Shown: positions 8,370-59,819 of the stretch, piece after piece
Numbering within the stretch: position 1 is the first letter of the stretch
Layout: each line of letters begins with the position of its first letter
NCBI GenBank assembly: GCA_964458775.1
Contig: CAYWLQ010000004.1
Location: forward strand, 15,526 to 79,525
Direction: 5' to 3'
Length of the DNA stretch: 64,000 nucleotides
From: an uncultured Myxococcales bacterium
Lineage (GTDB): Bacteria > Myxococcota_A > Polyangia > JAAYKL01
The notes under the pieces: generated by a model
Database searches by the model: none
Told to the model about the DNA's origin: nothing
Seen by the model: the letters and a program-made list of their open reading frames with translations, nothing else
Program-made: the position numbers and the translations under genes

Positions 8370-8725
8370 ATGACAACTCCGTTGTATTAATTGTACAAAC
8401 CAAAACAATCCTTCCTATCAATTAACCAGAAACAGCATAATTATTCCTGTTGCAATATGCTGTAAAAATGCATATTTCCAACCTATTAAAGAATTTGCAT
8501 TTGATAAATGTTACCAAAACCCCATGTCAACAAGGTTGACAAACCTAATTTTACCTGAATATTTTTGAACAAGTGTTGTATGTAAGAAAAATACTACACA
8601 AAAGAAGAGTTCTAAACACATGTCTATTCAACAAAGAAAAATTTTCTATCCTTAATACGCGCACCATGTGCTAAGGTCACGAAGGATATATTTTTTAATT
8701 AATACAATCGGTCATGGGAGTTGCT

Positions 8726-39384: not shown

Positions 39385-41157
39385 CTATTGAGAATCGGAT
39401 ATAGTTTTAACTGCTCTGTCACTTGAAACTATATATGCAATTCCTACAAAAAAAAGAACTCCCAAGATCAAAGCAAGAAGAATGGCTGCCCACATATGTT
39501 TATTTTCTTTGTGAGCAGGAGGTTGTGAATTTGGCAACAGACCGCTTATAGCGATCATTTGTGACTCAACTAACAATTTACTGGAGAGATCATTTTCAAT
39601 TCCTGAAGATATGTCACGAGAAGAAACGGGTTTTCTTCTTTTACTAGAATGAAACAATAATTCAGGTTCTACTACTTCAGTTGTACTGGATCTTGTTTCA
39701 CTATTAATGTCCTTGTCTTCTGTCGAAGCTACACTGCTTGAATTATTTGGTTTTTCAAGCTGAAGACGTAAAGGTCGACATTTAGCAGGTACTATACGTT
39801 CAGGAGCAACATCCTGAAGATGATAAGCTCCCTTAGCCGGCTTGCTTATACTTGATGGAGATTTTACTTCCACTATTGGAGACTGTGAAGCAGGCATTGA
39901 GCTTCTTATTGTTTTGGGAGCAAACGGATTATCTATAAGCGCTTTCAAAAGATGCACAACACTTGTTATTGAAGCATTTTCAGAGGCAGTACGATTTACA
40001 TTTGTCGGGTTTTCAACAAAGCGAACCGCTCCGCATCTAAATAGAGTATGAATGATACGTTCAATTTCAAAAAGATCATTCTTGGCACCAAAGAACTGTC
40101 GAAATCGATTTAAATCTGCACCTTTAGCAATCTCTGCCGCTATATCTATTGCATATGATGATACAGTTTCAGATGCAGTGCGCAAAAAGTTCGGCCTTAC
40201 GGATATGTGAGATTCCAACTGCTTAAAATCTTTAGTGCTTCGTCCGAAAAGGCGTGAAAAATTTTTGGTAATACGGTTAATGATTTCTTCGGTATCAAAT
40301 GATTTCCGATTTACGAACTCTTTTTTCTTTTCTGCAAAAGTCCATTTGCCGGAGTCACACAACATTAACTGCATTATTGCATCTATGTCCTCATCCGCTT
40401 CACCGTCTATACCTTTCCGATATGCCGAAGTTATTTTTCCGTCTGACAAATCAACAGTGAACATGTTCCACGTATCGTTAACAGACAGAGAACCGCTAAG
40501 TTTTGCTGATGACAACACACGTAACAAAACGGCAGGCCCGGTCATTTCAACTCGATCACTAAGCGGACGCCTTGCCAATATACGTTCCTCAAGAACTCGA
40601 ACAGGAGCCAGAAGCTCCTCAAGCTGATTTAGAACGTCATCAAGTAATACTCTTCCTTCATCTTCAGATGTTTCTTCCCACCAACGAAGTAAAATCACCG
40701 AACTCCATCTCAAAAGAGGATGTCGTCTCAAGTTCTGTATAAAGGCAAACCCCTCTTCACCAGGACGAACGAAATCAGAAATAACAGCATCAGGCAAAAA
40801 TTTTGCTGCTTGAGTATATCCGCTGACCGAATGATCGCCCACAGCAACTTTTGCACCAAGCGCTCTAAGATCAACCGCTAAGGCATCCACTTTTATAGGA
40901 TCGCTGTCAATAACCAAAAGACGCAATCCATTGACTCGAAATTTTGCAGGAGATGTAGGAGGAAGCGAAGGTCGAATTTTAATTAAACGCTCTTGTTCCT
41001 TTTTTGGTTTTTCCGGAATTTCAATTACGCCGGACAAATCCTCCCAAGAGTCTTCGCCTAAGGATTTTTTTGGTTTGTAAGGAGAATAACTGATTTTATT
41101 CCGGTCATTCATAATCGTTTTACCAAAATAGCATAGTTTTCTAGTTATTTCGAGCAA
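39385..41157 (-). CDS. Response-regulator receiver domain protein with DUF4388-like domain and C-terminal TM anchor
   Basis: REC-like 'RLLVIDSDPIKVDALAVDLRALGAKV...DAVISDF'. DUF4388-like 'LLRVLSSAKLSGSLSVND'. C-terminal TM 'MWAAILLALILGVLFFVGIAYIV'. The start is ambiguous (TTG at 41157 or ATG at 41112). Confidence 0.55.
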   Translation of the reverse strand: MLEITRKLCYFGKTIMNDRNKISYSPYKPKKSLGEDSWEDLSGVIEIPEKPKKEQERLIKIRPSLPPTSPAKFRVNGLRLLVIDSDPIKVDALAVDLRALGAKVAVGDHSVSGYTQAAKFLPDAVISDFVRPGEEGFAFIQNLRRHPLLRWSSVILLRWWEETSEDEGRVLLDDVLNQLEELLAPVRVLEERILARRPLSDRVEMTGPAVLLRVLSSAKLSGSLSVNDTWNMFTVDLSDGKITSAYRKGIDGEADEDIDAIMQLMLCDSGKWTFAEKKKEFVNRKSFDTEEIINRITKNFSRLFGRSTKDFKQLESHISVRPNFLRTASETVSSYAIDIAAEIAKGADLNRFRQFFGAKNDLFEIERIIHTLFRCGAVRFVENPTNVNRTASENASITSVVHLLKALIDNPFAPKTIRSSMPASQSPIVEVKSPSSISKPAKGAYHLQDVAPERIVPAKCRPLRLQLEKPNNSSSVASTEDKDINSETRSSTTEVVEPELLFHSSKRRKPVSSRDISSGIENDLSSKLLVESQMIAISGLLPNSQPPAHKENKHMWAAILLALILGVLFFVGIAYIVSSDRAVKTISDSQ

Positions 41158-41312: not shown

Positions 41313-42764
41313 ATGGAAGACAATGTAAGTACTGAGAAAATTGATAGCCGACATGGTCAAGTTTCTGAACAAACATGGTCTTACCTTGTCGAACACGGTA
41401 TGGTTGAGGCGTTATTTGACCTTCTAGATGACGGAATTATTGTTCATGATGAACATAGAAATATTCTTTTAATAAATACAGCAGCCGAAGCGTTAACCGG
41501 TTTATCAAGAAAAGAAATATTAGGGCATGATTGTCACAGCTTGTTTCCCAAAACCGGCTTATGCGGTGCAGCCTGCGCCTTTAAAAATGAGAAAGAAATA
41601 AAAAACGAAGAACGCGAACATGAAGTGTATTTTCATCGTTCTGACGGAGAAACAAGATATGTTCGTATCAAATCTGTACCGATTTTCTTGGACAACAAGC
41701 ACAGAGGTGTACTTGCAGTGGTAAGGGACATTTCAGAGGTAGAAGACCTGAAATTTCGAAGAACCCATCATACAAAGTTTCATGGAATGATAGGAACATC
41801 TCACAGTATGTTGCAAGTGTTTGAAACAATTAGATCTGTAGGACCTTCTGATTATCCGGTTCTAATCATGGGAGAAAGCGGAACCGGCAAAGAGCTGGCC
41901 GCTGCAGCCATTCATCAAGAAAGCAGAAGAAAAGCCGGACCTTTTGTACCGGTTAATTGCGGTGCTTTACCGGAGAATATTCTTGAAAGCGAGTTATTTG
42001 GGCATGTTAGGGGTGCGTTTACCGGCGCAATTAGAGATAAAAAAGGTAGATTTGAACTTGCTGACGGAGGAACAATTTTTTTGGACGAAGTGGGAGAATT
42101 GCCGCTTCATATGCAAACCAAACTTTTGCGCGTACTTCAGGAAAGCAGTTTTGAGCGCGTTGGAGGAGAAAGATCTGTTAAAGTTGATATTAGGGTGGTT
42201 GCCGCTACCAATCGAGATCTTCGAGAAATGGTTGCAAGAGGTGCGTTTAGAGAAGATTTGTTTTATAGGCTATGCGTGGTCCCTGTTGAGTTACCCCCTC
42301 TAAGACAACGTATTGAGGACATTCCACATATTATTGCGGATATTTTGGATAATGTTAACACGGAAACGGGCAAGCAAATAGGTTCGGTTTCAGACGGTGC
42401 TATAAAGTTGTTGCTTGCACATTCATGGAGAGGAAATGTTCGAGAGCTTATAAACGCTCTACAATATGCTTCTGTAATATGCAAAGGAACAGTTATATTA
42501 GAAGAAAATCTACCATATGAAATACGCTTTCCTAATTCTGATTCTTACCTTCCGCCGTCCGGTTTGAATGACAGAAACGTATTTAAATCAAGTACTGCAG
42601 CAAATACTTCTGTCTTTGATGGAAGAAAGCGTTTAACAGTCCAAAATGTTCAAGATGCATTGACACAAACCGGCGGAAATCGGCTTAGAGCAGCAAAACT
42701 ACTAGGAATAGGTCGCGCAACCCTTTATAGATTTCTTTCGGAACACAAAGCCCACATATTATAA
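41313..42764 (+). CDS. Sigma-54-dependent transcriptional activator with N-terminal PAS domain and C-terminal Fis-type HTH
   Basis: '[18 protein letters not shown]', 'GAFTGA', '[15 protein letters not shown]'. HTH '[17 protein letters not shown]'. There is a GAGGTGA RBS. Confidence 0.85.
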
Positions 42765-42983
42765 TAATTGCCAATTATACCGTATTATCATTAATTAATA
42801 ACGCATGCCTCGATTAGCACTCATGATGGGTGATTGGTATAATACAAATATTTTTATTTAATTTTTATGGGAAAGTTTTACCCTTTCAGAACACATAATA
42901 AACTAGTGATGTTTATAATTGAGAAATGAACTTTATAAATCAATTAAGACCGACTTTATATTTTTTACGAAAGGTCATCTACA

Positions 42984-45900
42984 ATGAATATTAAAGAAGC
43001 AAAAATTAGACTAAACAAAAATGAACTATTTCTACGATTTTTATGTGCAGTTTTTTTGTTAGGACTTGCAGCGACAATGTCGTGTGAAGGAGACGGACCT
43101 AAAATCGGAAAAGACGGTTCAGATGCTGATGCAGATAGTGATTCGGACATTGATGCAGATGCAGATTCGGATATTGATGTAGATACGAATAACATTCCAG
43201 GCGATACCGACAATAACGGTTCTGATACTGCTATTTGTGTGGGATTGGAGGCAATAGGTGATCCAAGATGTAGAATGGAACCTTCCGGCCCGGCCTGCGG
43301 AGATGCGGAGATTAATCAAGAAAGTGAGGAATGTGACGACGGAAACACACTTCCAGGTGACGGTTGCAACGGAATTTGCAGAGTCGAACCAAACTGGGTT
43401 TGTCCTAAACCCGGTGAAAAATGTACCCTGCTTATTATTTGCGGTAACGGAAAAATAGAACCGGGTGAGGTATGTGATGACGGAAATAATATTGATGATG
43501 ACGGTTGCAACAATAAGTGTGAGCAGAGCCCCAATTATATTTGCCCAAGGCCTAATGAGGCTTGTCAAAGAGTGGTGGTGTGCAACGACGGACGAATTGG
43601 GGGTGATGAAACCTGTGAAGACGGTAACACAATTTCCGGAGACGGTTGTGATGAGAATTGCCACAGAGAAGACGGTTGGATATGTTTAATTCCGGGGCAA
43701 AAATGTGTTCCCAGAAATGTTTGCGGTGACAGCATTCTAAGCGCCGCTGACGGAGAAAAATGTGATGACGGCAATACAAGAGACGGTGATGGGTGTGCCG
43801 GAGATTGCAAGAGTATCGAATCAGGTTATGTTTGTCCTGAAGCCGGAAAACAATGTGTTAACACAACAGTATGCGGTGACGGCAGAGTTTCAGGATCGGA
43901 AACCTGCGATGATGCTAATGATGATCCGGCCGACGGATGTGATAACTGTGCATTACAGCCCGGCTATGAATGCCCTTTCCCCGGCGCCAAATGTCTTGCC
44001 AAATGCGGAGACGGAATAATATTGCTCAATGAAGAGTGTGACGACGGAAATACTCAGGACGGCGACGGATGTACAAGTACCTGCGAATGGGAAGACGGCT
44101 TTATCTGTACCGGCACACCTCCTAACTATGTGTGCCGAGAAACAGTTTGCGGAGACTCCAAAGTGGAAGGTACGGAGGCATGTGACGACGGAAATAACAA
44201 CATGGGAGACGGATGTACTCCATTCTGCGATAAAGAACCTATCTGTAATGGAGGTGCTTGCACTTCAACTTGCGGTGACAGTCTTTTGCTTACCAGCATG
44301 GGGGAAGAATGTGATGACGGTAATGCTCGTGACGGAGACGGTTGCTCTTCCAGTTGCAAAATAGAACCCGGATTTCAATGTGTACAACCGCCTATTGGCG
44401 ATAAAATGACTATTCCGTTAGTAGTTAGAGACTTTCCGGGCACTCACGCAGACTTTGAGAACGGGGTTACAGGCTCTGTTGATGCAACATTAGGTTTAGT
44501 AAAGGATACATTGGATGCTGACGGTAAACCGGTATTTGCCGGCGCAAACTCTACAGGACATATTGCAAGTGCAGCTTCTTTTGCTGAATGGTTTAGGGAT
44601 GCTTCATCCAATACAACCGTTGTAACTTCACTGACGCTCTATGATAACGGCAACGGTGGTTATGTTAACCGATGGGGACCTGACGGTGAGCCTTTTGCTT
44701 ATTACACTGATGCAGTATGGTGCGGAAACGGAGGAGCCGGTTGTACTGAATGTACGGAAGATCAATATGATGTTTGCTTAGACCCATGCACATATTGGGG
44801 TAACGGCAATACTTCGGCTTGTGGAGTTCAGGCAGTTTACATGGAGGGAAATCCTGTTTTCTTTCCCGCTGACGGTATAGCCGGTGCAACTCCTTTGTCT
44901 ATAGCTCAAATACCGCCGCCTTATGCTGACAGTTGGCCTGCTGAGTTTCCGGATCTTGATGTGGCGGACCAGCCTAAGCATAATTTCGCCTTTACCAGTG
45001 AAGTCAGATATTGGTTTCAGTATAATTCTGCACAAACCTACACACTTGACTTCTTGGGGGATGATGATGTTTGGGTTTTCCTAAACAATAAGTTGGCTGT
45101 TGATCTAGGAGGTATTCATACTCCTGTAGCCGGTAACCTAACAATTGCCGGTTTGGCAGACGGTACAGCCTACGGAATGGAAGACGGCAAGGTTTACGAA
45201 ATAGTGGTTTTCCAAGCTGAGCGTCAAACCACTTGCTCCTCCTATCAGCTAACTCTTAGCGGTTTTAATGCTGCAGAAACAAAATGCGGACCTATTTGCG
45301 GTGATGCCGTAATGTCTCCGGGAGAACAATGTGATAACGGAGATGCTGAAAACACCGGAGGTTACGGCAAGTGTCAACCTGATTGTACGAGAGGACCTTA
45401 TTGCGGTGACGGCAAAGTTCAAAATGATATTGATTCGGTAACCGGTGAACCGTACGAGCAATGTGACGACGGTGTGAACGTAAGCCCTTATAGCATAGAT
45501 ATGACCTCAGGCTGCTCTCCCGGATGCATCCAGCCTCCATATTGCGGTGACGGTATTGTTCAGGGAGCGTTTGGAGAGACCTGTGATGACGGAGTAAATG
45601 ACGGTTCTTATGGCGGATGTTCAAGCACTTGCGGATATGCCGCATGGTGCGGAGACGGAATTAAACAAGAGGCCTTTGGAGAAGAATGCGACGACGGTTT
45701 GAATGACGGAACCTATAATACATGTTCTCCGGGATGCAAAGCTCCTCCTCGTTGCGGTGACGGCATACTTCAAATAGAATGGGGTGAGCAATGTGAAATA
45801 GGAGAAGCAAACTGCAGCGACAAATGCAATTGGCTGGGAGTTTGCGGCGACGGTTCTGTTGATGACGGAGAAGAATGTGATGATGGAGTCAACGACGGCG

Positions 45901-46184
45901 GTTACGGAGAATGTGCTCCGGAATGCAAACTAGGTCCATATTGCGGTGACGGAGCAGTTGAAACATCTATTAATCCGGCCACGAGCAATCCTTACGAACT
46001 CTGTGATGATAGAAATAACAAAGGCGGCTATGGAGAATGTGCTCCGGGATGTGTACTTGGACCGAGATGCGGAGACGGAATCCCTCAGCCGGGATATGAA
46101 GAATGTGATGAAGGTGAAAAAAACGGAACTTCGCAATCCCTTTGTACCTCTGCTTGCAAGGAAATATTAATCATTCCTATTTGA
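42984..46184 (+). CDS. Giant secreted (lipoprotein-like) Cys-rich repeat protein with central fibro-slime domain
   Basis: Signal with Cys '[11 protein letters not shown]'. An Asp/Ser acidic linker follows. There are 12 or more N-terminal repeats 'CGxGxxExGExCDDGNxxxGDGC', a central '[28 protein letters not shown]...[14 protein letters not shown]' fibro-slime motif, and 8 or more C-terminal Cys repeats. Confidence 0.8.
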
Positions 46185-46321
46185 CATCGACTTGATCCTG
46201 TTTTTAGTTTAATTGAAATATTCTATTTCATTTGAGAGGCTTCCTAATCTCTGCTACCTTTTATTAATAGAGGACTTTTTGTTTAGAATTAACTTGTTTA
46301 TTAGAATGAAGGATTGAAATC

Positions 46322-49300
46322 ATGACAACAATTAGATTCTTAAATGGACTATGCTGTATGAAGGGGTTTGTTTTAATAATAGTCAGTTTGTTTGTCTTCG
46401 TTGCAACAACATCATGTGAAGGCGGCGGACCGGAAATAATTTCGGGCGGTGATGCGGATGCGGATTCTGACGCTGACGGGGATACCGACCGCGAAGGTGA
46501 TTCGGTAACGCCCGGCGATACAAGCGACAAAGAAAACAATACCGACAATAGTGGAGATACGGCTATCTGCGCAGGACCGGACGCAATAGGCGACCCAAGA
46601 TGTCGAATGGAACCTTCCGGACCGGCCTGCGGTGATGGGGAAATTAATCAAGAAAGCGAGACGTGTGACGACGGCAATACACTTCCTGGTGACGGTTGCA
46701 ACGGTATTTGTAGAGTTGAACCCAACTGGCAATGTCCGGTACCGGGAGAAAAATGTATTTTGTTGATTGTTTGCGGCAACGGAAAGATTGAACCCGGCGA
46801 AGTATGTGATGACGGTAACACTATTGATGACGACGGATGCAACAGCACTTGTACTATTCAGAGCGCTAATTTTATATGTCCTACTCCCGGTGAGAAATGC
46901 CAACGTGTTGAGTTTTGCGGAAACGGAAGAATAGGCGGAGATGAAACCTGTGAAGACGGAAATACTGTTTCAGGAGACGGGTGCGATGAGAATTGTAAAA
47001 GGGAAGAAGGCTGGCTTTGTCTTATACCCGGTGAAAAATGTGTAAAAAAGAACGTTTGCGGTGACGGTCGGTTAGCTGTTGCCGATGGTGAGATATGTGA
47101 CGACGGAAATACCGTTAACGGTGACGGATGCTCAGCAGATTGTAAATCCATTGAACCCGGTTATGTATGTCCTGATCCCGGTCGGCAGTGTATAAATACA
47201 ACTCTTTGCGGTGACGGTCGTGTTTCAGGAAATGAAACATGTGACGATGCTAACAATGATCCCAGTGACGGATGCGATAATTGCAAAATTCAAACAGGCT
47301 ATGAGTGTCCTTTCCCCGGAGCGAAATGCATACCCAAATGCGGAGACGGTTTAACAATTCTCAACGAAGAATGTGATGACAAAAATACTGACAACGGCGA
47401 CGGTTGTACAAGCACCTGTGAGTGGGAAGACGGTTTTGTCTGCTCGGGAACACCTCCCGATTATGTATGTAGAGCCACAAAATGCGGTGACGGAAAAGCC
47501 GAAGGAACAGAGGCATGTGATGACGGCAACAATATTCCCGGCGACGGTTGTTCTCCGACTTGTCGTTGGGAACCTGCATGTTCAGGCGGACAATGCAGCT
47601 CTCCATGCGGTGACGGTTTGGTTGTCAACGAGGAATGCGACGATGGTAATACTAATGATGGAGACGGTTGTTCGTCAGGTTGCAAGATAGAAGACGGTTT
47701 TGTTTGTAAACAAGCGCCCATGGGAGATTCTATGATGGTTCCGGTGGTATATAGGGATTTTACTACTTCCCATCCGGACTTTGAACCTAGTGCTACCGGT
47801 CTCAGTGCAGCTGCTACAGGTTTGGTTCAAGATAGATTAGATGCAGACGGCAAACCTGTTTTTGCGGGAGTGCCGGGAGGAGCAGGACTTGTTACAAGCG
47901 CATCCTCTTTTTCTCAGTGGTATAGGGATGTGACCGGAGTAAATGCAACTATTGTAGATACAATGACCCTATATGCAAATGGGAGCGGGGGTTTTGTTAA
48001 TAGATGGGGTACTGACGGAGAACAATGGGCATCCTATAAAGAAGTTTGGTGTGCGCCGGACAATCCGGACGAAATCACCGATCCTTGTGTATATATATAT
48101 AACGCTGATGATTGTGACGAGCTTCGGGATCAATTGGTAGATTGTGTAGTTCACGGAGGTGCACAATGGGGAGTTTATATTGATCAGGCTTATGACGGCA
48201 ATCCGACCTTTTTTCCATTAGACAATCACCCGGATGCCATAACGCCTCTATCCGAGTACTCTTATGCTCAAATACCTCCGGCATATGACACAAGTGAGAG
48301 CTGGCCGTCGGACGAAGGCAGCCATAATTTTCATTTTACCAGTGAAGTTCGCTATTGGTTTAAATATGAAGCAGATCAGGTTTTCACTTTGGACTTTACA
48401 GGGGATGATGACGTATGGGTTTTTGTAAACAATCGTTTGGCTGTTGATCTGGGAGGCATTCACACTCCGGTAGACGGCAGCTTGAGGCTTGCTTCTGCTG
48501 CCGACGGTGCAAAATACGATATGGAAGACGGAAAGGTATATGAGATAGTAGTCTTTCAGGCTGAACGTCAGATAACTTCATCCACCTACAAACTTACGCT
48601 CAGCGGATTTAATTCTTCTGAAAGCAAGTGCGGACCTGTTTGCGGAGACGCTATTTTGTCGCCGGGAGAACAATGTGACAACGGCAAAGAACAAAATGTC
48701 GGAGGATACGGCAAATGCGACCCCGAATGTACTAGAGGACCGTATTGCGGTGACGGTATTGTTGAAACAACTATTAATCCGGACAATGAGATGCCCTATG
48801 AGCAGTGTGATGACGGTGTAAATATAAGTCCATACGGAATGAAACAAACCGACGGATGTTCTCCAGGATGTGTTTTACCGCCGTATTGCGGCGATTCAAT
48901 AGTTCAAGGTGCTTTTGGAGAGACTTGTGACGACGGCATCAACGACGGAAGCTACGGCGGTTGTACTTCCCAGTGCGGTTTGGCACCATGGTGCGGTGAT
49001 GGAAATAAACAAGAAGAATTCGATGAAGAATGCGATGACGGTCTAAATGACGGAACCTATAATACCTGTTCTCCCGGATGCAAGCTTCCTCCTCGCTGCG
49101 GTGACGGCATACTTCAAATAGAATGGGGAGAACAGTGCGACAGTACAGATGATTGCGGACCCAACTGCAAATTTTTAGGAATATGCGGTGACGGTGTTGT
49201 GGATGATGACGAGCAATGCGATGACGGAATGAATATCGGCGGCTATGGAGAATGTGCACCGGGTTGTGTAATAGGACCTCATTGCGGTGACGGAGCAGTT

Positions 49301-49525
49301 GAAACATCTATTAACCCAGCTACAAATAATCCCTACGAGCTTTGTGATGACGGAAACAACAAGGGCGGCTATGGAGAGTGCGCACCGGGATGTGTTTTGG
49401 GACCGCGTTGCGGCGACGGAATAGTTCAGCCTCAATATGAAGAATGCGATGAAGGCGAAGCAAACGGGACTAACCAGGTTTTATGTACAGCTGCATGTAA
49501 GAATATTGTCATCGTTCCCGTCTGA
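46322..49525 (+). CDS. Giant secreted Cys-rich repeat / fibro-slime domain protein (tandem paralog)
   Basis: Same architecture as the upstream gene and about 70% identical by eye. It has stretches of near-identical DNA, for example around '[16 protein letters not shown]'. Confidence 0.8.
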   Translation: MTTIRFLNGLCCMKGFVLIIVSLFVFVATTSCEGGGPEIISGGDADADSDADGDTDREGDSVTPGDTSDKENNTDNSGDTAICAGPDAIGDPRCRMEPSGPACGDGEINQESETCDDGNTLPGDGCNGICRVEPNWQCPVPGEKCILLIVCGNGKIEPGEVCDDGNTIDDDGCNSTCTIQSANFICPTPGEKCQRVEFCGNGRIGGDETCEDGNTVSGDGCDENCKREEGWLCLIPGEKCVKKNVCGDGRLAVADGEICDDGNTVNGDGCSADCKSIEPGYVCPDPGRQCINTTLCGDGRVSGNETCDDANNDPSDGCDNCKIQTGYECPFPGAKCIPKCGDGLTILNEECDDKNTDNGDGCTSTCEWEDGFVCSGTPPDYVCRATKCGDGKAEGTEACDDGNNIPGDGCSPTCRWEPACSGGQCSSPCGDGLVVNEECDDGNTNDGDGCSSGCKIEDGFVCKQAPMGDSMMVPVVYRDFTTSHPDFEPSATGLSAAATGLVQDRLDADGKPVFAGVPGGAGLVTSASSFSQWYRDVTGVNATIVDTMTLYANGSGGFVNRWGTDGEQWASYKEVWCAPDNPDEITDPCVYIYNADDCDELRDQLVDCVVHGGAQWGVYIDQAYDGNPTFFPLDNHPDAITPLSEYSYAQIPPAYDTSESWPSDEGSHNFHFTSEVRYWFKYEADQVFTLDFTGDDDVWVFVNNRLAVDLGGIHTPVDGSLRLASAADGAKYDMEDGKVYEIVVFQAERQITSSTYKLTLSGFNSSESKCGPVCGDAILSPGEQCDNGKEQNVGGYGKCDPECTRGPYCGDGIVETTINPDNEMPYEQCDDGVNISPYGMKQTDGCSPGCVLPPYCGDSIVQGAFGETCDDGINDGSYGGCTSQCGLAPWCGDGNKQEEFDEECDDGLNDGTYNTCSPGCKLPPRCGDGILQIEWGEQCDSTDDCGPNCKFLGICGDGVVDDDEQCDDGMNIGGYGECAPGCVIGPHCGDGAVETSINPATNNPYELCDDGNNKGGYGECAPGCVLGPRCGDGIVQPQYEECDEGEANGTNQVLCTAACKNIVIVPV

Positions 49526-49814
49526 TAAACAGTTTCCCTATTAAAAGTCTTTTTCAGAACAAATAAGAATGAGGCCGATGGGTTAATCCCATAGTAAGAC
49601 TTAATCTCGGCGTGCGTTTAGGGAATGGGACAAATTCATGTTTTACATCGATTTGCCTAATTTGCTGCGTTTTGAGATGGATACTAATTGGGTCTGTAAC
49701 AGTTTTTGCGTTAATGCACGTTTATAAATATTAGCCTGTTAATATAAGACTCTCATGCTTGATAAAACCTCTGAAAGATATAATCTCTATTATTCAAGGA
49801 ACGAGGAGATGCTT

Positions 49815-51557
49815 ATGAATAAACAAGCTGAATTGTCAAATACACTAAAAGGACCGAAATGGATGGAGTCTTTTGCCGAAACCTGGACTGACGGTCGCAA
49901 ACGCATGTTCATTATGCACGGCAATGTATTTGATTTGGTTGAGTGTAAAAAAGTCGGTAATACAGAATATCTAACACTTCCAGAATTTATGGCGACGCGT
50001 GTTTTTGGCACTTTTGATTCAGTATTGTACTACGACCAGGTAAGAGGACCTCGAGTCATTGCACAATCAAAAACGAGACTTGAAAAAATAAATAGACATA
50101 TAGACCGATTTATCGGTCCATCCGAAAAGCTTCGCGATCTTAAACAATTGGGGTCTGTTTTTGAAATGTTAGACCGTTATTTGGAGCTGGCTTTGTTGCA
50201 TGACAACGATAAACCTTCCATAGCTTTGATTTTTGATTATGCACAATTTATGGCACCGGCATCCGGAGTATCACAAACTTCCAAAGAAACAGGAGCTGTC
50301 TTGGCTACCCTCCTAAACTGGGCCAGAAGTCCTTATTTTAAAAATGTTTCATTTGCCTTTTGTCTTATTTCAGAAAAACTAAGCGATCTTCATGATTCTC
50401 TTACGCGCTCAGTTCATACAGCCAGAATAGAAATTCCGTTTCCCGAAAAGGAGGATAGAATAGCTTTTATAACTCATACCATAGCAAATGTGGATTTTGC
50501 TGCTTTCTCAGAAATTGACGAATCATCTTTGGCGGGCCTCAGTGCAGGAATGACTTTGGTCCACTTACAGGGGTTGTTGCAAAGAGCTTTTTCAGGCAAA
50601 CGTAAAATTACACTTAAAGACCTCAAAAAATATAAAAAAGAAATGATAGAAGGTGAATGCCAGGGATTAATAGAATTTATCGAACCCTCTTGTACCTTGG
50701 ATTTGGTTGTAGGCCAGAACGAAGCAAAAATACGTTTGCAAGAGGACGCAGAGCTTATGGCATGCGGTCGACTTGATGCCGTACCTATGGGATATCTATT
50801 TTGCGGCCCGGTGGGAACAGGCAAAACCTTCTTGGCAGAATGCTATGCCGGATCTGTAGGTATTCCGTGTATAAAGCTGTTAAATTTTCGCTCAAAATAT
50901 GTGGGAGAGACCGAAGGTAATCTGGAAAAAGTGTTAAAAGTGTTGAGAGTTATGGGTCCGGTGGCCGTTGTTATAGATGAAGCTGATGCAATGTTGGGAG
51001 ACCGCAAAGGCGGCTCTGATAGCGGAACCTCAAGTCGCGTTTTCGGTTTGTTTGCAAGCCAAATGGGCAATACTGCATACAGAGGAAAGATTGTTTGGTT
51101 TTTGCTGACCTGCCGCCCTGATCTTTTGCCGATTGATCTAAAAAGACAAGGTAGATGTGAAGTGCACATTCCGCTCTTTTATCCTGAAACCGAAGCCGAT
51201 ATTCAGGAAATGTTTGTGGTAATGGGAAAGAAAAACAAAATTGTGATCGACCTTGACGAAATTCCAAAGATTCCCTCAAAAGTATCTCTATCGGGTGCTG
51301 ATATTGAGGGAATAGTAATGAGAGCAAAACGTGCCTCTTTGCTACAAAAGGCCGAAGATGTTACAAAAGAGCATTTGGAAGCTGCTATCAGAGACTTTGT
51401 TCCTTCTGCCGAAACAGCTGAAAAAGATTTGCAGATTGCAGCAGCAATTATTGAATCTACTAGTATAAAATTTCTTCCCGATAGTGTTTTATCTGATCCA
51501 AACTGGAGAGATGTCGCTCATGAAAAATATAGGATACTAAAACCGACATTGACTTAG
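49815..51557 (+). CDS. AAA+ ATPase with uncharacterised N-terminal domain
   Basis: Walker A 'CGPVGTGKTFLAECYAG'. Walker B 'VVIDEADAML'. The ATG at 49815 follows a GAGGAG RBS. The track start is 49755. Confidence 0.65.
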   Translation: MNKQAELSNTLKGPKWMESFAETWTDGRKRMFIMHGNVFDLVECKKVGNTEYLTLPEFMATRVFGTFDSVLYYDQVRGPRVIAQSKTRLEKINRHIDRFIGPSEKLRDLKQLGSVFEMLDRYLELALLHDNDKPSIALIFDYAQFMAPASGVSQTSKETGAVLATLLNWARSPYFKNVSFAFCLISEKLSDLHDSLTRSVHTARIEIPFPEKEDRIAFITHTIANVDFAAFSEIDESSLAGLSAGMTLVHLQGLLQRAFSGKRKITLKDLKKYKKEMIEGECQGLIEFIEPSCTLDLVVGQNEAKIRLQEDAELMACGRLDAVPMGYLFCGPVGTGKTFLAECYAGSVGIPCIKLLNFRSKYVGETEGNLEKVLKVLRVMGPVAVVIDEADAMLGDRKGGSDSGTSSRVFGLFASQMGNTAYRGKIVWFLLTCRPDLLPIDLKRQGRCEVHIPLFYPETEADIQEMFVVMGKKNKIVIDLDEIPKIPSKVSLSGADIEGIVMRAKRASLLQKAEDVTKEHLEAAIRDFVPSAETAEKDLQIAAAIIESTSIKFLPDSVLSDPNWRDVAHEKYRILKPTLT

Positions 51558-53834: not shown

Positions 53835-54611
53835 CTAGAATCCCTCCACAAAACTTCCGAGGTCAATTGAGTTGAGCCATTCAAATGTTGAACGAATATA
53901 AACAATTCGATCTCTTTCACGAAAATCAAACGAAATCTCTGCTACCGCAAAAGATGAACGGTCAGTTAATACTCTAAGATTTCCTTTAAATCGTTCTATT
54001 TCGAGTACAAGATCTGTCATCGTTCTTTCAATATCAATTGTTGATGCAACATCAGCGTCATCCAAAAATTTACGTGTTCGCTCTAAAATATCCTCCCTAG
54101 ATTTTATTCGCCCCTTTAGTTCTGCTATTCTCAAAGTCAAATCCTCACTACTAAGATTTTTTTCTAATAGTATTCCAAAGTCTGCAATTTGATCTGCAAA
54201 AGAGGAAAGCTGTTCCGGCGGTAACTTAACTTTAATGGAGCCTTTAGCAAAATGAACCAGAAAGCCTCCAAAGCTCTTTGCTGATTGTTCTATTTGTGTT
54301 CTTGCTTCGTCAGGACTAAGAACTTTCATCGTTGCCCGCCAAACCATTGCTTTTTGTCCAAAATGTAGAGAAGAATTTTTATTTTCAGTGTTAACGTTAA
54401 GAGAATCGGTTTCCACCGACGATTTAGCTGCTTTACCGGGCACATCAGATGTAACAGAAGCATCGCTACTTGATATTGCATCAGTTTTTTGTGACTTGTC
54501 AGATGTTAACTCTTTGGATATTTCAGGTTTAATACTTTCCGCAGAAAACGATTCGGTTGTATTTATCGATATATAAGTAAAAATAGTTGCTAAAAAAATT
54601 AACGCTTTCAT
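53835..54611 (-). CDS. Secreted coiled-coil protein, DUF4349-like
   Basis: Signal peptide, then 'MVWRATMKVLSPDEARTQIEQSAKSFGGFLV' and a C-terminal coiled-coil. It is homologous to the upstream 438-aa protein. Confidence 0.45.
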   Translation of the reverse strand: MKALIFLATIFTYISINTTESFSAESIKPEISKELTSDKSQKTDAISSSDASVTSDVPGKAAKSSVETDSLNVNTENKNSSLHFGQKAMVWRATMKVLSPDEARTQIEQSAKSFGGFLVHFAKGSIKVKLPPEQLSSFADQIADFGILLEKNLSSEDLTLRIAELKGRIKSREDILERTRKFLDDADVASTIDIERTMTDLVLEIERFKGNLRVLTDRSSFAVAEISFDFRERDRIVYIRSTFEWLNSIDLGSFVEGF

Positions 54612-55897
54612 TATATTACCTCCACAGATTTCAGCATTTCTATTATCGACGGATAATGCAAGTTCTTGGAATCAACGTTTGGGAAAAACGCTTCTACGAC
54701 ATAAATCTTTAAATCTGAGGTGTGAACAGCAATCAAATAGAATCTTGGATTGATATCTCTATTTTCATAAAGTCGATATACAAATGAGCCCTGTTTTCCT
54801 TTGTCAACAAGGTTTTCCTGCCTTGATGCCATCTCAAAATCTATGGCGTTACTCCAAAATTCGTTGTTTCCGCTGGGCTCGTTTTCGACAACCGAAGCTC
54901 TTATAATAGAAGTATCAGCAGATTGAGCCTTAAATGCGTCTTCTTTGTCAAACAGTACAAAACCTTTGGGTAACTTAATAAGAAAGGATTTCTTGTCTTT
55001 TCTAGATGAATCAATGGTTTGCAAATGAGGTTTTAAACCTCTCACCCAAGGAAACGGCGACAATCCTCTATCTATATTGTCGACTTCCAAGACGGGAACA
55101 AGTTCAATTGTTATCGTAAAAAAATCCGTTAGGTTTTTTATTGCCGCTAAGCTTGCATCAATGGTGTCAATAAGTTCTGAAAGTCGTTTTATTTCGTTTA
55201 ATATACGTAGTCGCTCTGTTGTATTCGGTGTTTTCTTTAGAAGCAATGTAAGGCGTTCTCTTGCCTGCAAAGCAACATCCAATCTGGCTCGCAAGTCAGT
55301 AAATTGTTCTGTTACATCCTCCGCTTGAACCCATTTATCCAAGAGATCTCCTAATGCTGATAGCTCTTTCATTGCTTCTTCAAACTTTTTGCCTGGAATT
55401 CTAACAATAACAACTGAGCCCGTTAACGCTTCAATATAGCCGCCTCTTTTGTTTACAAACGCAGTTATTTGGTCTTGAGCTTCAATTATACGTCTTACTC
55501 TCAGTTGCAGGTATCCTGTATATATTACCATTGGGTCTGCGTGCTCAACCTTAACTTCATTTGTAAGAGGTGCCGTAGATACTGAAGCAGAGGACTCAAC
55601 GCTATCACTTACAGTCGGGTAAACAGAATCTACCCCTTGTCCTGCTCCGCCTGTATTCCCTGACCTGCTATCTGCTTCCGGCATTTTTTTTGCGGAATAG
55701 TCGTTATAACTGTAACTCTCCTCCATGACGGCACTTGCTGATTCCGGCGGGTAAGCATAGTTGTCATAGTCTGCATTTCCTGCTTTCATTGATGAAGGGG
55801 GAGCAGGCGGTTCTCCATATGCCTTATCTCTGTTAGATAATGAAGCTCCGCAACCCAAAACCATAATTGATATTACCCCCCAAAACAATATTCTCAT
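54611..55897 (-). CDS. DUF4349-like lipoprotein with low-complexity N-terminal linker and extra C-terminal domain
   Basis: Lipobox 'IMVLGCGAS'. Also 'MVIYTGYLQLRVRRIIEAQDQITAFVNKRGGYIEAL'. It is a paralog of the downstream gene. Confidence 0.45.
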   Translation of the reverse strand: MRILFWGVISIMVLGCGASLSNRDKAYGEPPAPPSSMKAGNADYDNYAYPPESASAVMEESYSYNDYSAKKMPEADSRSGNTGGAGQGVDSVYPTVSDSVESSASVSTAPLTNEVKVEHADPMVIYTGYLQLRVRRIIEAQDQITAFVNKRGGYIEALTGSVVIVRIPGKKFEEAMKELSALGDLLDKWVQAEDVTEQFTDLRARLDVALQARERLTLLLKKTPNTTERLRILNEIKRLSELIDTIDASLAAIKNLTDFFTITIELVPVLEVDNIDRGLSPFPWVRGLKPHLQTIDSSRKDKKSFLIKLPKGFVLFDKEDAFKAQSADTSIIRASVVENEPSGNNEFWSNAIDFEMASRQENLVDKGKQGSFVYRLYENRDINPRFYLIAVHTSDLKIYVVEAFFPNVDSKNLHYPSIIEMLKSVEVI

Positions 55898-55959
55898 GTC
55901 GCTTCTCCTATTCAACGGTTCTTTCATTGTATAGCATCTTGCAATAAATACCTATGCTA

Positions 55960-59640: not shown

Positions 59641-59819
59641 ATGATTATTCCCGATATTTTGGCAGGATTTTGTTGAAAAATGCTTTTTTTATTTCAGCAC
59701 TCTTTGTAGACAAACTTTTGCGACATTGTAAATAAAGATATTACGAAACGAAAAACAGCTCTGTTTTTATAATAATAGTGTCATATAATGATTAGCTTAA
59801 GGCTGAAGGGATAGTGACT

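What the first reader, a model, noticed from the sequence alone, without database searches (positions are those of the whole stretch)
42984..49525. Tandem about 1067-aa paralogs: lipoprotein-like giants with Cys-rich 'CDDGN..GDGC' repeat arrays flanking a fibro-slime domain
The two genes are adjacent, co-oriented and about 70% identical in protein by eye, with long near-identical DNA stretches. Each has a signal peptide ending '..TSCEG', an acidic DADSD linker, 12 or more disulfide-type repeats, a central fibro-slime/PA14-like domain ([23 protein letters not shown]...[12 protein letters not shown]) and 8 or more further Cys repeats. They sit between a PAS sigma-54 activator with a REC-DUF4388 protein upstream and an AAA+ ATPase with a novel N-domain downstream. 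The repeat arrays give a substrate for recombination and variation between the copies. The function of this family is unknown, possibly surface adhesion or matrix.
Basis: seen in the sequence. Interest (0 to 1): 0.6.

Follow-up and report, generated by a model that had tools for sequence, protein, structure and literature searches.

The report
Paired lectin-headed surface lipoproteins of myxobacteria
Two neighbouring genes encode large, lipid-anchored, disulfide-rich proteins with a sugar-binding-type (PA14) head between two stiff repeat arms; in relatives the head differs sharply between near-identical strains, as expected of a recognition receptor.

Summary
The two ORFs are real: 42984-46184 (1066 aa) and 46322-49525 (1067 aa), 67-70% identical. 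Each has a lipoprotein-type signal, a disordered acidic tether, 8 six-Cys DUF4215/TIGR02232 repeats, a ~300-aa fibro-slime/PA14 head, 8 shorter four-Cys repeats and an 8-residue tail.

Two first-reader details fail. There are 16 repeats per protein, not 20 or more. There are no long near-identical DNA stretches: 70% nt identity, longest exact run 34 nt, dS saturated.

The pair is an old duplication, not an assembly artefact, and its order is kept in the closest relative. It is mosaic. The repeat arms of A and B are sisters (92-94% bootstrap). The heads belong to different clades (99-100%). So the arms were homogenised while two head classes were kept.

The architecture is conserved end to end across Myxococcota and is only auto-annotated. 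Neighbours are not syntenic and no sigma-54 promoter was found.

New here: among close relatives the head is hypervariable. One syntenic locus has ~100% identical flanks but a 72-78% identical head.

Best reading: surface-anchored, probably Ca2+-dependent lectin receptors with exchangeable heads. They resemble TraA and yeast flocculins but are not TraA members. Function is inferred; polymorphism could not be tested in this lineage.

The parts
42814..42843 (+). sigma-70-like promoter candidate upstream of gene A (TTAGCA-18-TATAAT with TG)
   Evidence: Consensus scan, 10 of 12 matches. The number of such sites equals the shuffle expectation, so this is a candidate only. No sigma-54 -24/-12 element lies in 42765-42983 or 46185-46321.
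42984..46184 (+). gene A: 1066-aa lipoprotein-type DUF4215/fibro-slime protein ('type A' head)
   Evidence: ORF, translation, HMM hits. Its head clusters with P0013/P0014/P0016 at 99% bootstrap.
42984..43085 (+). gene A signal peptide and lipobox Cys34 (..LAATMS-C-EG)
   Evidence: Read from the sequence. The Cys is invariant in alignment A1 and nearly invariant (at least 90%) in the 86-sequence alignment A3. Coordinates.
43086..43295 (+). gene A acidic low-complexity tether (residues 35-104)
   Evidence: [21 protein letters not shown] run; a 12/24-nt tandem repeat at 43127-43186. The equivalent region of B is disordered in the model.
43296..44381 (+). gene A N-terminal arm: 8 six-Cys DUF4215/TIGR02232 repeats
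   Evidence: Repeat parsing; coordinates.
44382..45269 (+). gene A head: extended fibro-slime/PA14 domain (residues 467-762; GDDD at 45057-45068)
   Evidence: TIGR02148 78.5 bits; PA14 23.9 bits against a cutoff of 24. Coordinates.
45285..46181 (+). gene A C-terminal arm: 8 four-Cys divergent repeats plus hydrophobic tail (..CKEILIIPI)
46185..46321 (+). 137-nt AT-rich intergenic spacer; AAGGA ribosome-binding site 8 nt before the gene B ATG
   Evidence: Sequence. No terminator-like or promoter-like site was found in it.
46322..49525 (+). gene B: 1067-aa paralog ('type B' head)
   Evidence: ORF, translation, HMM hits. Its head clusters with P0002 at 100% bootstrap.
46322..46417 (+). gene B signal peptide and lipobox Cys32 (..FVATTS-C-EG)
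46418..46627 (+). gene B acidic tether (residues 33-102)
   Evidence: pLDDT below 50 for residues 22-80 of the full-length model.
46628..47707 (+). gene B N-terminal arm: 8 six-Cys repeats (starts at residues 103, 151, 199, 246, 296, 340, 388, 429)
   Evidence: TIGR02232 316 bits in 8 stretches; DUF4215 202 bits in 8 stretches.
47708..48613 (+). gene B head (residues 463-764); the PA14/fibro-slime core is 48323-48613, with invariant GDDD at 48401-48412
   Evidence: TIGR02148 84.5 bits and PA14 30 bits on the isolated head. AlphaFold pLDDT 89.6. All Foldseek hits at E <= 0.001 (37) are PA14-containing structures.
48059..48190 (+). main variable segment of the head (residues 580-623, a Cys-containing insert)
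   Evidence: Lowest family-wide conservation with many indels. It is the region where A and B, and alleles in relatives, differ most.
48479..48514 (+). second variable loop of the head (residues 720-731, after GGIHTPV)
   Evidence: It is expanded by up to about 30 residues in many homologs.
48629..49522 (+). gene B C-terminal arm: 8 four-Cys repeats (starts at residues 774, 809, 856, 891, 926, 955, 988, 1030) plus tail ..CKNIVIVPV
   Evidence: TIGR02232 only 72 bits in 8 stretches; DUF4215 84 bits in 5 stretches, so this is a divergent repeat variant. The tail is 8 residues after the last Cys in 66/90 homologs.

Best explanation
Genes A and B encode two paralogous envelope lipoproteins of one conserved Myxococcota family. 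Proposed working, step by step:

1. Export by Sec and lipidation at the invariant Cys. There is no Lys at +2, so the protein probably leaves the inner membrane for the outer membrane or cell surface. Inferred.
2. A ~70-residue acidic disordered tether follows. Shown by the model.
3. Eight six-Cys, Asp-rich DUF4215 units form a disulfide-locked, probably Ca2+-binding rod. The fold is modelled with confidence; Ca2+ binding is inferred.
4. A ~300-aa extended PA14/fibro-slime beta-sandwich acts as a ligand-binding head. Its core is invariant (HNFxFT...GDDDVWVF...D.GGIH) and its surface loops vary. The ligand is most likely a glycan bound through the Asp cluster, as in Flo5, Epa1, MpIBP and as proposed for TraA. 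Fold shown; ligand inferred.
5. Eight shorter four-Cys units and a fixed 8-residue tail form a second arm. Its length co-varies with the first arm across the family.

The tandem pair is an old duplication carrying two head classes. Gene conversion has partly homogenised the arms while the heads stayed distinct, so the cell would display two specificities on one scaffold.

In related lineages the head behaves as an exchangeable, highly polymorphic cassette between near-identical strains. That points to a recognition function under balancing or frequency-dependent selection. Candidates are variable glycan ligands, self/non-self recognition, or escape from something that targets the head.
For: Architecture: HMM hits; 8+8 repeats with 89-91 Cys and D+E 190 versus K+R 57.

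Conservation: the family is conserved end to end, with every repeat Cys invariant and 50-62% identity in hundreds of ~1030-1090-aa homologs. 557 of 600 scanned genome loci were confirmed, from Polyangia, Sorangium, Myxococcus, Bradymonadaceae, Nannocystaceae and Kofleriaceae.

Lipoprotein: a lipobox was found in at least 98/120 homologs, and +2 is never K or D. In M. xanthus, Lys at +2 marks inner-membrane lipoproteins (PMC3222651).

Head: model pLDDT 89.6. All 37 Foldseek PDB hits at E <= 0.001 carry PA14 domains: RsgI 6qe7, Flo1/Flo5 4lhn/2xjp, Epa1/6/9, MpIBP 6x8a/5j6y, and the PA14 inserts of GH31 and GH3 enzymes.

Both genes are under purifying selection, dN/dS 0.06-0.17.

Mosaic pair: bootstrap NJ gives A+B 92-94% in the arms. 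In the head it gives A+B 0%, B+P0002 100% and A+(P0013, P0014, P0016) 99%. The closest relative, L081, keeps the tandem order type A then type B.

Head polymorphism: within 90%-identity clusters, aa diversity is 0.070-0.109 in the head parts versus 0.042 in the arms. L084 and L085 share one syntenic locus with ~100% identical DNA for 8 kb on each side, but the head region is 72-78% identical. Head dS is 0.75 versus 0.12-0.25 in the arms, and head dN/dS is 0.21. A second syntenic set, L086-L088, has flanks at 93-97% and head windows down to 0.63. The P0316 head is 92% identical to heads at a different locus, while its arm is 98% identical to its allele. Among 234 pairs with N arms at least 94% identical, median head identity is 85% and the lower quartile is 76%.

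Arm lengths co-vary, r = 0.85.
Against: No experiment exists on any member; literature searches found none.

Surface exposure is not shown. The lipoboxes of these two genes are non-canonical at -3 (T-M-S-C and T-T-S-C), and no signal-peptide predictor was available.

Glycan and Ca2+ binding rest on fold and motif analogy. No PA14 structure matches at sequence level, and model coordinates could not be inspected to check where the Asp cluster sits relative to the variable loops.

Head polymorphism was shown only in relatives at 55-58% identity. The window's own genes are singletons in the protein collection, and no close relative was found in metagenomes.

Some mosaic contigs could be metagenome assembly chimeras between paralogs with similar arms. 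However, two allele combinations recur on 20-22 contigs each.

The arm-length correlation rests on about a dozen long variants that may share ancestry.
Confidence: 0.55

Rival explanations
1. Matrix or structural protein. The proteins are released or shed into the extracellular matrix. There the very acidic, Ca2+-binding repeat arms and the lectin head cross-link exopolysaccharide. They would be scaffold rather than receptor.
For: Net charge is about -130, and there are 16 Cys-rich acidic repeats. M. xanthus exports some lipoproteins to the matrix (PMC3222651). DUF4215 repeats occur in a diatom adhesive-trail protein. The head sits between two arms rather than at one end.
Against: The matrix-sorting Ala at +7 found in M. 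xanthus is absent: A has K and B has E at +7. A purely structural cross-linker does not predict allelic head hypervariability on conserved arms.
Confidence: 0.18
2. Substrate-capture protein for insoluble polysaccharide such as cellulose or chitin, like the fibro-slime outer-membrane proteins of Fibrobacter succinogenes.
For: It shares the TIGR02148 fibro-slime domain at 78-85 bits. Fibrobacter fibro-slime proteins are described as cellulose-binding surface proteins (PMC4668043 and others). Members occur in cellulolytic Sorangium.
Against: The family spans predatory, non-cellulolytic Myxococcota. No glycoside hydrolase or transporter is consistently adjacent. An invariant polymer ligand would not favour many head alleles.
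Confidence: 0.1
3. The head varies because it is a target, not because of its own ligand. The exposed head would be a receptor for phages, toxins or predators, and negative frequency-dependent selection diversifies it. Its native role could be anything.
For: The alleles are old (head dS 0.75) in otherwise identical genomes. Changes are confined to loops around a fully conserved core. Each allele is under purifying selection, dN/dS 0.21.
Against: No phage or toxin is known to use it. The pattern is equally expected for self-recognition or ligand-matching receptors such as TraA. This rival overlaps the best explanation rather than excluding it.
Confidence: 0.12
4. The two genes form a sigma-54-controlled operon or system with the flanking PAS-sigma54 activator, the REC-like protein and the AAA ATPase.
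For: They are physically adjacent in this window.
Against: No -24/-12 element lies in either intergenic region; hits at up to 2 mismatches equal chance, 29 observed versus 29.6 expected. The neighbours are not syntenic with the family: the sigma-54 activator sits at varying positions in 8/80 loci, the AAA in 1/80, the REC-like protein in 0/80. Other loci have unrelated neighbours.
Confidence: 0.04
5. Assembly duplication artefact or decaying pseudogene copy.
For: None beyond adjacency and similarity.
Against: The copies differ by 30% in nucleotides, and both are intact with dN/dS 0.06-0.17. Each head has its own orthologs in other genomes. The tandem pair is also present in L081.
Confidence: 0.01

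Closest known systems
TraA of Myxococcus xanthus, the polymorphic outer-membrane-exchange / kin-recognition receptor (PMC3325183)
   Same: Same phylum. A secreted envelope protein with a distant PA14-type lectin-like domain, a long Cys-rich repeat 'stalk' and a lipid-type anchor. The PA14 region is the polymorphic part; here that was shown in relatives. A conserved pair of Asp residues is proposed as the Ca2+ site in TraA.
   Different: TraA has a type I signal, its PA14 domain at the N-terminus, TIGR04201 repeats, a C-terminal MYXO-CTERM tag and an adjacent traB. These proteins have an N-terminal lipobox and the head in the middle between two arms. Their repeats are TIGR02232/DUF4215. They have no MYXO-CTERM and no TraB-like neighbour. 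They are not TraA members.
Fibro-slime domain proteins of Fibrobacter succinogenes (TIGR02148 founders; proposed cellulose-binding outer-membrane proteins)
   Same: They share the ~90-aa fibro-slime signature (HNF.FT...GDDDVWVF...GG.H) well above cutoff and a proposed surface, carbohydrate-binding role.
   Different: Different phylum and lifestyle. The double-arm lipoprotein layout with DUF4215 arrays was seen here only in Myxococcota-type genomes. No direct sequence comparison with a Fibrobacter protein was run.
Yeast flocculins and epithelial adhesins (Flo1/Flo5, Epa1/6/9): PA14 lectin head on a repeat stalk with a lipid (GPI) anchor
   Same: The PA14 fold is among the top structural matches (4lhn, 2xjp, 4a3x and others; probability 0.9-1.0). 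Both have a head, repeat stalk and lipid anchor, and both have specificity loops around a conserved core. The families diversify by recombination among paralogs.
   Different: Sequence identity is only 9-18%. The stalks are Ser/Thr-rich and glycosylated rather than disulfide-rich. The head is terminal. The host is eukaryotic.
Dictyostelium PsiA / DicA1 (PA14 plus Cys-rich repeats; secreted developmental signals)
   Same: They combine PA14 with Cys-rich repeats in a social, aggregating soil organism (discussed in PMC3325183). Slime-mould proteins are co-founders of the fibro-slime model.
   Different: No hit to the Dictyostelium repeat family was reported. They are secreted factors, not lipoproteins.
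MpIBP / RTX-adhesin PA14 sugar-binding domains (5j6y, 6x8a, 6m8m)
   Same: They give the best-superposing PA14 cores: rmsd about 4 A over about 111 residues, probability 1.0. They are Ca2+-dependent sugar binding modules embedded in very long repeat adhesins.
   Different: Those are type I-secreted RTX adhesins with Ig-like repeats, and their PA14 domain lacks the ~200-aa N-terminal extension seen here.

Membership tests
Fibro-slime domain-containing proteins (NCBIfam TIGR02148) | Match to the TIGR02148 HMM at or above the curated cutoff of 45 bits | tested here: met
   78.5 bits for A and 81.8 bits for B; 84.5 bits for the isolated head of B.
DUF4215 / Myxococcus cysteine-rich acidic repeat proteins (PF13948, TIGR02232) | Multiple repeats matching the models above cutoff (27 and 20.8 bits) | tested here: met
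   DUF4215 scores 236/257 bits and TIGR02232 scores 318/352 bits. The N arm has 8 strong repeats (316 bits). The C arm has 8 weak, shortened repeats (72 bits).
PA14 domain (PF07691) | HMM match above the 24-bit gathering score | tested here: inconclusive
   B scores 28.8 bits, or 30 bits for the head alone, and passes. A scores 23.9 bits, just below the cutoff.
PA14 domain (PF07691) | PA14 beta-sandwich fold | tested here: met
PA14 lectins (Flo5/Epa1/MpIBP type) | Ca2+-coordinating adjacent Asp pair and bound sugar | not testable with these tools
   An invariant GDDD lies at B residues 694-697. Its equivalence to the lectin Asp pair could not be checked, because no coordinates were accessible and no sequence-level match to solved PA14 structures exists.
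Bacterial lipoproteins (signal peptidase II substrates) | N-terminal signal peptide ending in a lipobox with an invariant Cys | tested here: inconclusive
   The Cys is invariant in A1 and nearly invariant in A3, and homologs have canonical L-x-G/A/S-C boxes in at least 98/120. The two window genes have T at -3 (ATMS-C and ATTS-C). No dedicated predictor was available.
TraA outer-membrane-exchange receptor family | TIGR04201 Cys-rich repeats | tested here: not met
   No TIGR04201 hit, even at E <= 1 on the isolated arms.
TraA outer-membrane-exchange receptor family | C-terminal MYXO-CTERM sorting tag (TIGR03901) | tested here: not met
   No hit. The proteins end 8 residues after the last Cys, with no transmembrane helix or Arg-rich tail.
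TraA outer-membrane-exchange receptor family | PA14 variable domain directly after a type I signal peptide, and an adjacent traB (OmpA-like) gene | tested here: not met
   The head starts at residue ~463, after 8 repeats. The neighbours are a sigma-54 activator, an AAA ATPase and a SPOR protein.
TraA outer-membrane-exchange receptor family | Polymorphic recognition domain among closely related strains | tested here: inconclusive
   Met in relatives of the same family. Not testable for the window lineage, which has singleton clusters and no close metagenome relatives.
Fibrobacter-type cellulose-binding fibro-slime proteins | Binding to cellulose; outer-membrane location | not testable with these tools
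   Both are experimental properties. Only the shared domain was tested.

The most novel reading that the evidence does not exclude
This conserved Myxococcota family is a second, TraA-independent polymorphic cell-surface recognition system. It would be a lipid-anchored double-arm stalk carrying a PA14 head, whose specificity loops exist as many ancient allele classes. The heads would be exchanged as cassettes between paralogs (such as this tandem pair) and between strains, using the conserved Cys-repeat arms as homology arms. It would set who adheres to or recognises whom (kin, prey or matrix type).
Probability: 0.2. Interest if true: 0.8.

Novelty: new variant of a known kind. Interest (0 to 1): 0.5.

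Why it matters
Myxobacteria are the main bacterial model for multicellular cooperation. TraA, a PA14 head on a Cys-rich stalk, is their best-understood kin-recognition receptor.

This family uses similar kinds of building blocks in a different layout: an N-terminal lipid anchor, the head between two arms, and a different repeat family. It is far more widespread in the phylum and is conserved end to end. In at least two lineages it shows the hallmark of a recognition locus: old, sharply divergent head alleles in otherwise near-identical genomes.

If the inference holds, it offers a new and easily testable candidate for strain-specific adhesion or recognition, by head swaps on a constant scaffold. 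It would also give a function to the widespread but uncharacterised DUF4215 and fibro-slime domains.

For this window alone the result is more modest. It holds two intact, old paralogs with different heads and partly homogenised arms.

Tried and rejected
1. Sigma-54 control by the upstream activator. Searching TGGCAC-N5-TTGCW with up to 2 mismatches gave 29 hits against 29.6 expected, none in the two intergenic regions. Rejected.

2. Conserved gene neighbourhood or partner gene. tblastn of 10 neighbours against 80 related loci found no synteny. Other loci have unrelated neighbours.

3. Recent gene conversion or near-identical tracts. None found.

4. Assembly artefact. Rejected.

5. Repeat-number variation as the source of diversity. 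The 8+8 layout, with 47+33 Cys, is fixed in most homologs.

6. A diversity-generating retroelement or phase-variation repeats as the source of head variation. No reverse transcriptase or template repeat lies in the loci. Differences include indels and have high dS. The only tandem DNA repeats are in the acidic linker.

7. Sequence-level match of the family to any solved structure. None at E <= 1 for the full profile, and only a chance hit for the PA14-region profile.

8. The repeats have no significant structural neighbour in the PDB; the full-length search returned only PA14 hits.

10. Naming the organism. HtpG places the contig nearest Myxococcota / 'Deltaproteobacteria' MAGs at 54-60% identity, with unnamed relatives at 72-73%.

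11. Close relatives of the window genes in metagenomes. None; the best match was 51% identical.

12. Rfam families anywhere in the window. None.

13. Literature on fibro-slime, DUF4215 or TIGR02232 in myxobacteria. None beyond TraA analogies and a diatom trail protein.

Full report
OBSERVATION

Two co-oriented ORFs sit exactly where stated: gene A at 42984-46184 (1066 aa) and gene B at 46322-49525 (1067 aa). They align over their full length at 67% identity by BLASTP. A global alignment gives 70% aa and 70% nt identity.

- TIGR02232 'cysteine-rich acidic repeat': 318 and 352 bits (cutoff 20.8).
- DUF4215: 236 and 257 bits.
- TIGR02148 fibro-slime: 78.5 and 81.8 bits (cutoff 45).
- PA14: weak, 28.8 bits for B and 23.9 bits for A against a cutoff of 24.

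Two details do not hold.
- Each protein has 8 N-terminal units (41-50 aa, six Cys) and 8 C-terminal units (29-47 aa, four Cys). That is 16, not 20 or more. The C-terminal units are a degenerate version of the same repeat: 72 bits over 8 stretches versus 316 bits for the N arm.
- There are no long near-identical DNA stretches. The longest exact run is 34 nt and the best ungapped segment is 289 nt at 82%. Third-codon identity is 0.50 and dS is 1.7-2.8.

Both copies are intact and under purifying selection (dN/dS 0.06-0.17). An assembly artefact is excluded.

ANATOMY (gene B numbering; window coordinates)

- Residues 1-32: signal ending FVATTS-C.
- 33-102: acidic tether, disordered in the full-length model (pLDDT below 50 for residues 22-80).
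- 103-462: eight six-Cys repeats.
- 463-764: head.
- 770-1067: eight four-Cys repeats, then a tail of 8 residues after the last Cys (..CKNIVIVPV). That tail length is kept in 66/90 homologs.

The proteins have 89-91 Cys, and 190 Asp+Glu against 57 Lys+Arg.

A model of residues 425-810 built on an 86-sequence alignment is confident (pLDDT 89.6, pTM 0.80). Every Foldseek PDB hit at E <= 0.001 (37 hits) carries a PA14 domain. These include RsgI anti-sigma PA14 (6qe7), yeast Flo1/Flo5 (4lhn, 2xjp), Candida Epa1/6/9, the Marinomonas ice-adhesin PA14 (5j6y, 6x8a) and the PA14 inserts of GH31 and GH3 enzymes. The full-length model gave the same hits.

The PA14 core corresponds to residues ~668-764. 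The preceding ~200 residues match no family and belong to the same compact module. The repeats have no solved structural or sequence relative.

THE FAMILY

The architecture is not idiosyncratic.
- More than 6600 database proteins match. Hundreds of ~1030-1090-aa proteins are 50-62% identical to gene B from end to end.
- In alignments of 24 and 86 members every repeat Cys is invariant, as are the head motifs HNF.FT, GDDD.W, D.GG.H and E.R.
- The modal form has 47 Cys in the N arm and 33 in the C arm, in 53/80 parsed members.
- A lipobox with an aligned Cys is present in at least 98/120 members. Residue +2 is never Lys or Asp. In M. xanthus, Lys at +2 marks inner-membrane lipoproteins and Ala at +7 marks matrix ones (PMC3222651). 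A and B have Glu at +2, and Lys or Glu at +7.
All came from Myxococcota-type genomes: Polyangiaceae, Sorangium So ce56/26/134, Nannocystaceae, Kofleriaceae, Sandaracinaceae, Bradymonadaceae and Myxococcus.
- Myxococcus vastator has a reduced 584-aa version with 5+2 repeats.

Sources name these proteins only 'fibro-slime domain-containing' or 'DUF4215 domain-containing'. I found no paper on any member.

The window itself is about 40% G+C. Its HtpG is nearest to Myxococcota and 'Deltaproteobacteria' MAGs at 54-60% identity, with unnamed relatives at 72-73%. So it comes from a poorly sampled, low-GC branch.

SURROUNDINGS

- The upstream PAS-sigma54 activator and the downstream AAA protein are as described. 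The 'REC-DUF4388' protein has only sub-threshold hits.
- None of these neighbours is linked to the family elsewhere. Sigma-54 activators lie within 10 kb in 8/80 loci, at varying positions. The AAA occurs in 1/80 and the REC-like and SPOR proteins in 0/80. Five other loci examined in detail have unrelated neighbours.
- No sigma-54 -24/-12 element lies in the two AT-rich intergenic regions. A sigma-70-like site at 42814-42843 is a candidate only.
- No Rfam family is present.
- Antisense ORFs inside the genes are probably by-products of skewed repeat DNA.

HISTORY OF THE PAIR

Region by region, A and B are each other's best match in both repeat arms (78%). In the head, B's best match is P0002 (76-85%) and A's best matches are P0014, P0013 and P0016 (68-80%).

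Bootstrapped distance trees make this formal.
- In the arms, A+B are sisters in 92-94% of replicates.
- In the head, A+B never group. B+P0002 is found in 100% of replicates and A+(P0013, P0014, P0016) in 99%.

The contig of P0002 (L081, 57% G+C) carries the same tandem arrangement. Its truncated upstream copy has type-A affinities (77% to P0016), and P0002 lies downstream. In another genome the two types are unlinked: P0014 and P0012 come from one assembly. A second copy within 10 kb occurs in 7/80 loci.

So the pair is an old duplication with two head classes. In this lineage the arms have been partly homogenised by gene conversion, long enough ago that synonymous sites are saturated again. 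But recombination made the arms alike and left the heads different. Present-day repeats, at 60-77% DNA identity, are poor recombination substrates.

HEAD POLYMORPHISM IN RELATIVES (the main new result)

I listed members of eight 90%-identity clusters of family proteins and compared regions.
- Amino-acid diversity is 0.042 in each arm. In the three parts of the head it is 0.105, 0.109 and 0.070.
- In several clusters, proteins with 95-98% identical arms have heads only 70-80% identical.

Two cases are demonstrably allelic.
- P0316 and P0318 lie in the same syntenic locus in two metagenomes. The DNA is ~100% identical for 8 kb on either side. Across the head it is 72-78% identical, grading to 94-98% in the N arm and 91-94% in the C arm. 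Head dS is 0.75 and dN/dS 0.21, against dS of 0.12-0.25 in the arms. The beta-core from HNF to GGIHTP is unchanged, and the differences fall in loops.
- A second locus, in three populations (L086-L088), has flanking genes at 93-97% and head windows down to 0.63-0.69.

Heads also move between backgrounds. The P0316 head is 92% identical to heads at that second locus, while its arm is 98% identical to its own allele.

Over 234 pairs with N arms at least 94% identical, median head identity is 85% and the lower quartile is 76%. One arm cluster of 16 proteins carries six head types.

Family-wide, the variable segments map to B residues 580-623 and 720-731, plus smaller loops. These are the places where A and B differ most.

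Caveats.
- These are metagenome assemblies, and paralogs with similar arms could cause chimeras. However, two allele combinations recur on 20-22 contigs each.
- The window's own genes are singletons with no close relatives available. Polymorphism is therefore inferred for the family, not shown for this lineage.

MECHANISM, AND WHAT IS SHOWN VERSUS INFERRED

Shown:
- the domain order;
- the PA14 fold of the head;
- the disordered tether;
- strict conservation of all Cys and of the head core;
- purifying selection on both copies;
- the mosaic history of the pair;
- head hypervariability in relatives.

Inferred:
- lipidation and export to the outer membrane or surface, from the invariant lipobox Cys and absence of an inner-membrane retention residue;
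- disulfide-locked, Ca2+-binding rods, from the Cys pattern and the DDGN/GDGC acidic loops;
- Ca2+-dependent glycan binding by the head. This rests on analogy with Flo5, Epa1 and MpIBP, and with TraA, where an adjacent Asp pair is the proposed Ca2+ site (PMC3325183).

Speculative: the two arms may work as a pair. Their lengths co-vary across the family (r = 0.85), but few independent events underlie this.

The pattern of old, functional, loop-restricted head alleles on a constant scaffold is what recognition loci under balancing or frequency-dependent selection look like. It cannot say whether the selective agent is a variable ligand, self-recognition or an enemy that targets the head.

COMPARISON WITH KNOWN SYSTEMS

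The closest characterised analogue is TraA: signal peptide, PA14 variable domain, Cys-rich stalk, lipid-type anchor and a polymorphic head. Membership fails on every defining feature that could be tested.
- No TIGR04201 repeats.
- No MYXO-CTERM tag.
- The head is not N-terminal.
- No traB neighbour.

The genes are true members of the fibro-slime (TIGR02148) and DUF4215/TIGR02232 families. Functionally they resemble the head-on-a-stalk adhesins of yeast (Flo, Epa). They also echo the PA14 plus Cys-repeat proteins of Dictyostelium.

VERDICT

For this window alone they are new members of an auto-annotated but unstudied family.

The family is best described as a new variant of the PA14-head, Cys-rich-stalk surface-receptor theme, with an unexpected and strong head polymorphism. 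Interest is moderate (0.5). The layout and the polymorphism are worth a specialist's attention. But function is inferred only, and the key population signal comes from relatives rather than from this locus.

Noticed in passing
window 3300-8408 (-): A 1702-aa single ORF fuses a Ser/Thr protein kinase, AAA_16, TPR, GAF, a sigma-54 activator domain and an HTH_8 domain. This is a very large one-protein signalling chain ending in an enhancer-binding module.
   Followed up: no
window 23203-25617 (-): An 804-aa protein with an N-terminal caspase (Peptidase_C14) domain. The remaining ~570 residues match no Pfam family.
   Followed up: no
window 53835-54611 (-) and 54611-55927 (-): Two adjacent DUF4349 paralogs of 258 and 438 aa whose coordinates share base 54611. 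This is another tandem pair in the window.
   Followed up: no
window 49755-51557 (+): A 600-aa AAA ATPase with its AAA domain at residues 348-473. The ~340-residue N-terminal region has no Pfam match. It is not syntenic with the family elsewhere, occurring in 1/80 loci.
   Followed up: partly
window 39385-41157 (-): A 590-aa protein with only sub-threshold receiver (20.7 bits) and DUF4388 (19.4 bits) matches. Most of the protein is unassigned.
   Followed up: partly
window 59814-61142 (+): A 442-aa ORF with no Pfam family apart from a weak PEGA match at 20 bits.
   Followed up: no
window 43119-43664 (-), 46412-46903 (-), 48939-49307 (-): Long antisense ORFs of 122-181 aa lie inside genes A and B. 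They are probably spurious products of strongly GC-skewed, codon-biased repeat DNA; GC skew there is +0.15 to +0.20.
   Followed up: no
window 42001-50000: The two genes are 45-48% G+C in a ~40% G+C contig. This probably reflects their Gly/Asp/Cys-rich composition rather than foreign origin, but it was not tested.
   Followed up: no
L075:9908-11662 (Myxococcus vastator): A reduced 584-aa family member: lipobox LVAC, 5 N-type repeats, a head lacking the Cys-rich insert, and only 2 C-type repeats. The family is shortened in at least this one cultured Myxococcus.
   Followed up: partly
L084/L085 positions ~3594-4193: A second, smaller island of divergence (89-95% identity) lies in otherwise identical DNA. 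It spans the end of the deoxynucleoside-kinase-like gene and the start of the pantoate transferase gene.
   Followed up: no
L084:6124-7800 (+) and L084:11220-13094 (-): Two ORFs of 558 and 624 aa with no Pfam hits flank the polymorphic family gene. The second abuts its stop codon. Both are conserved in L085. Whether they are partners was not examined.
   Followed up: no
family-wide (alignments A1, A3): N-arm and C-arm lengths expand together in the long variants of 1235-1640 aa (r = 0.85). Cys counts there are 55/47, 61/49-51, 67/49 and 77/61-65, against the modal 47/33. This hints that the two arms act as a pair.
   Followed up: partly
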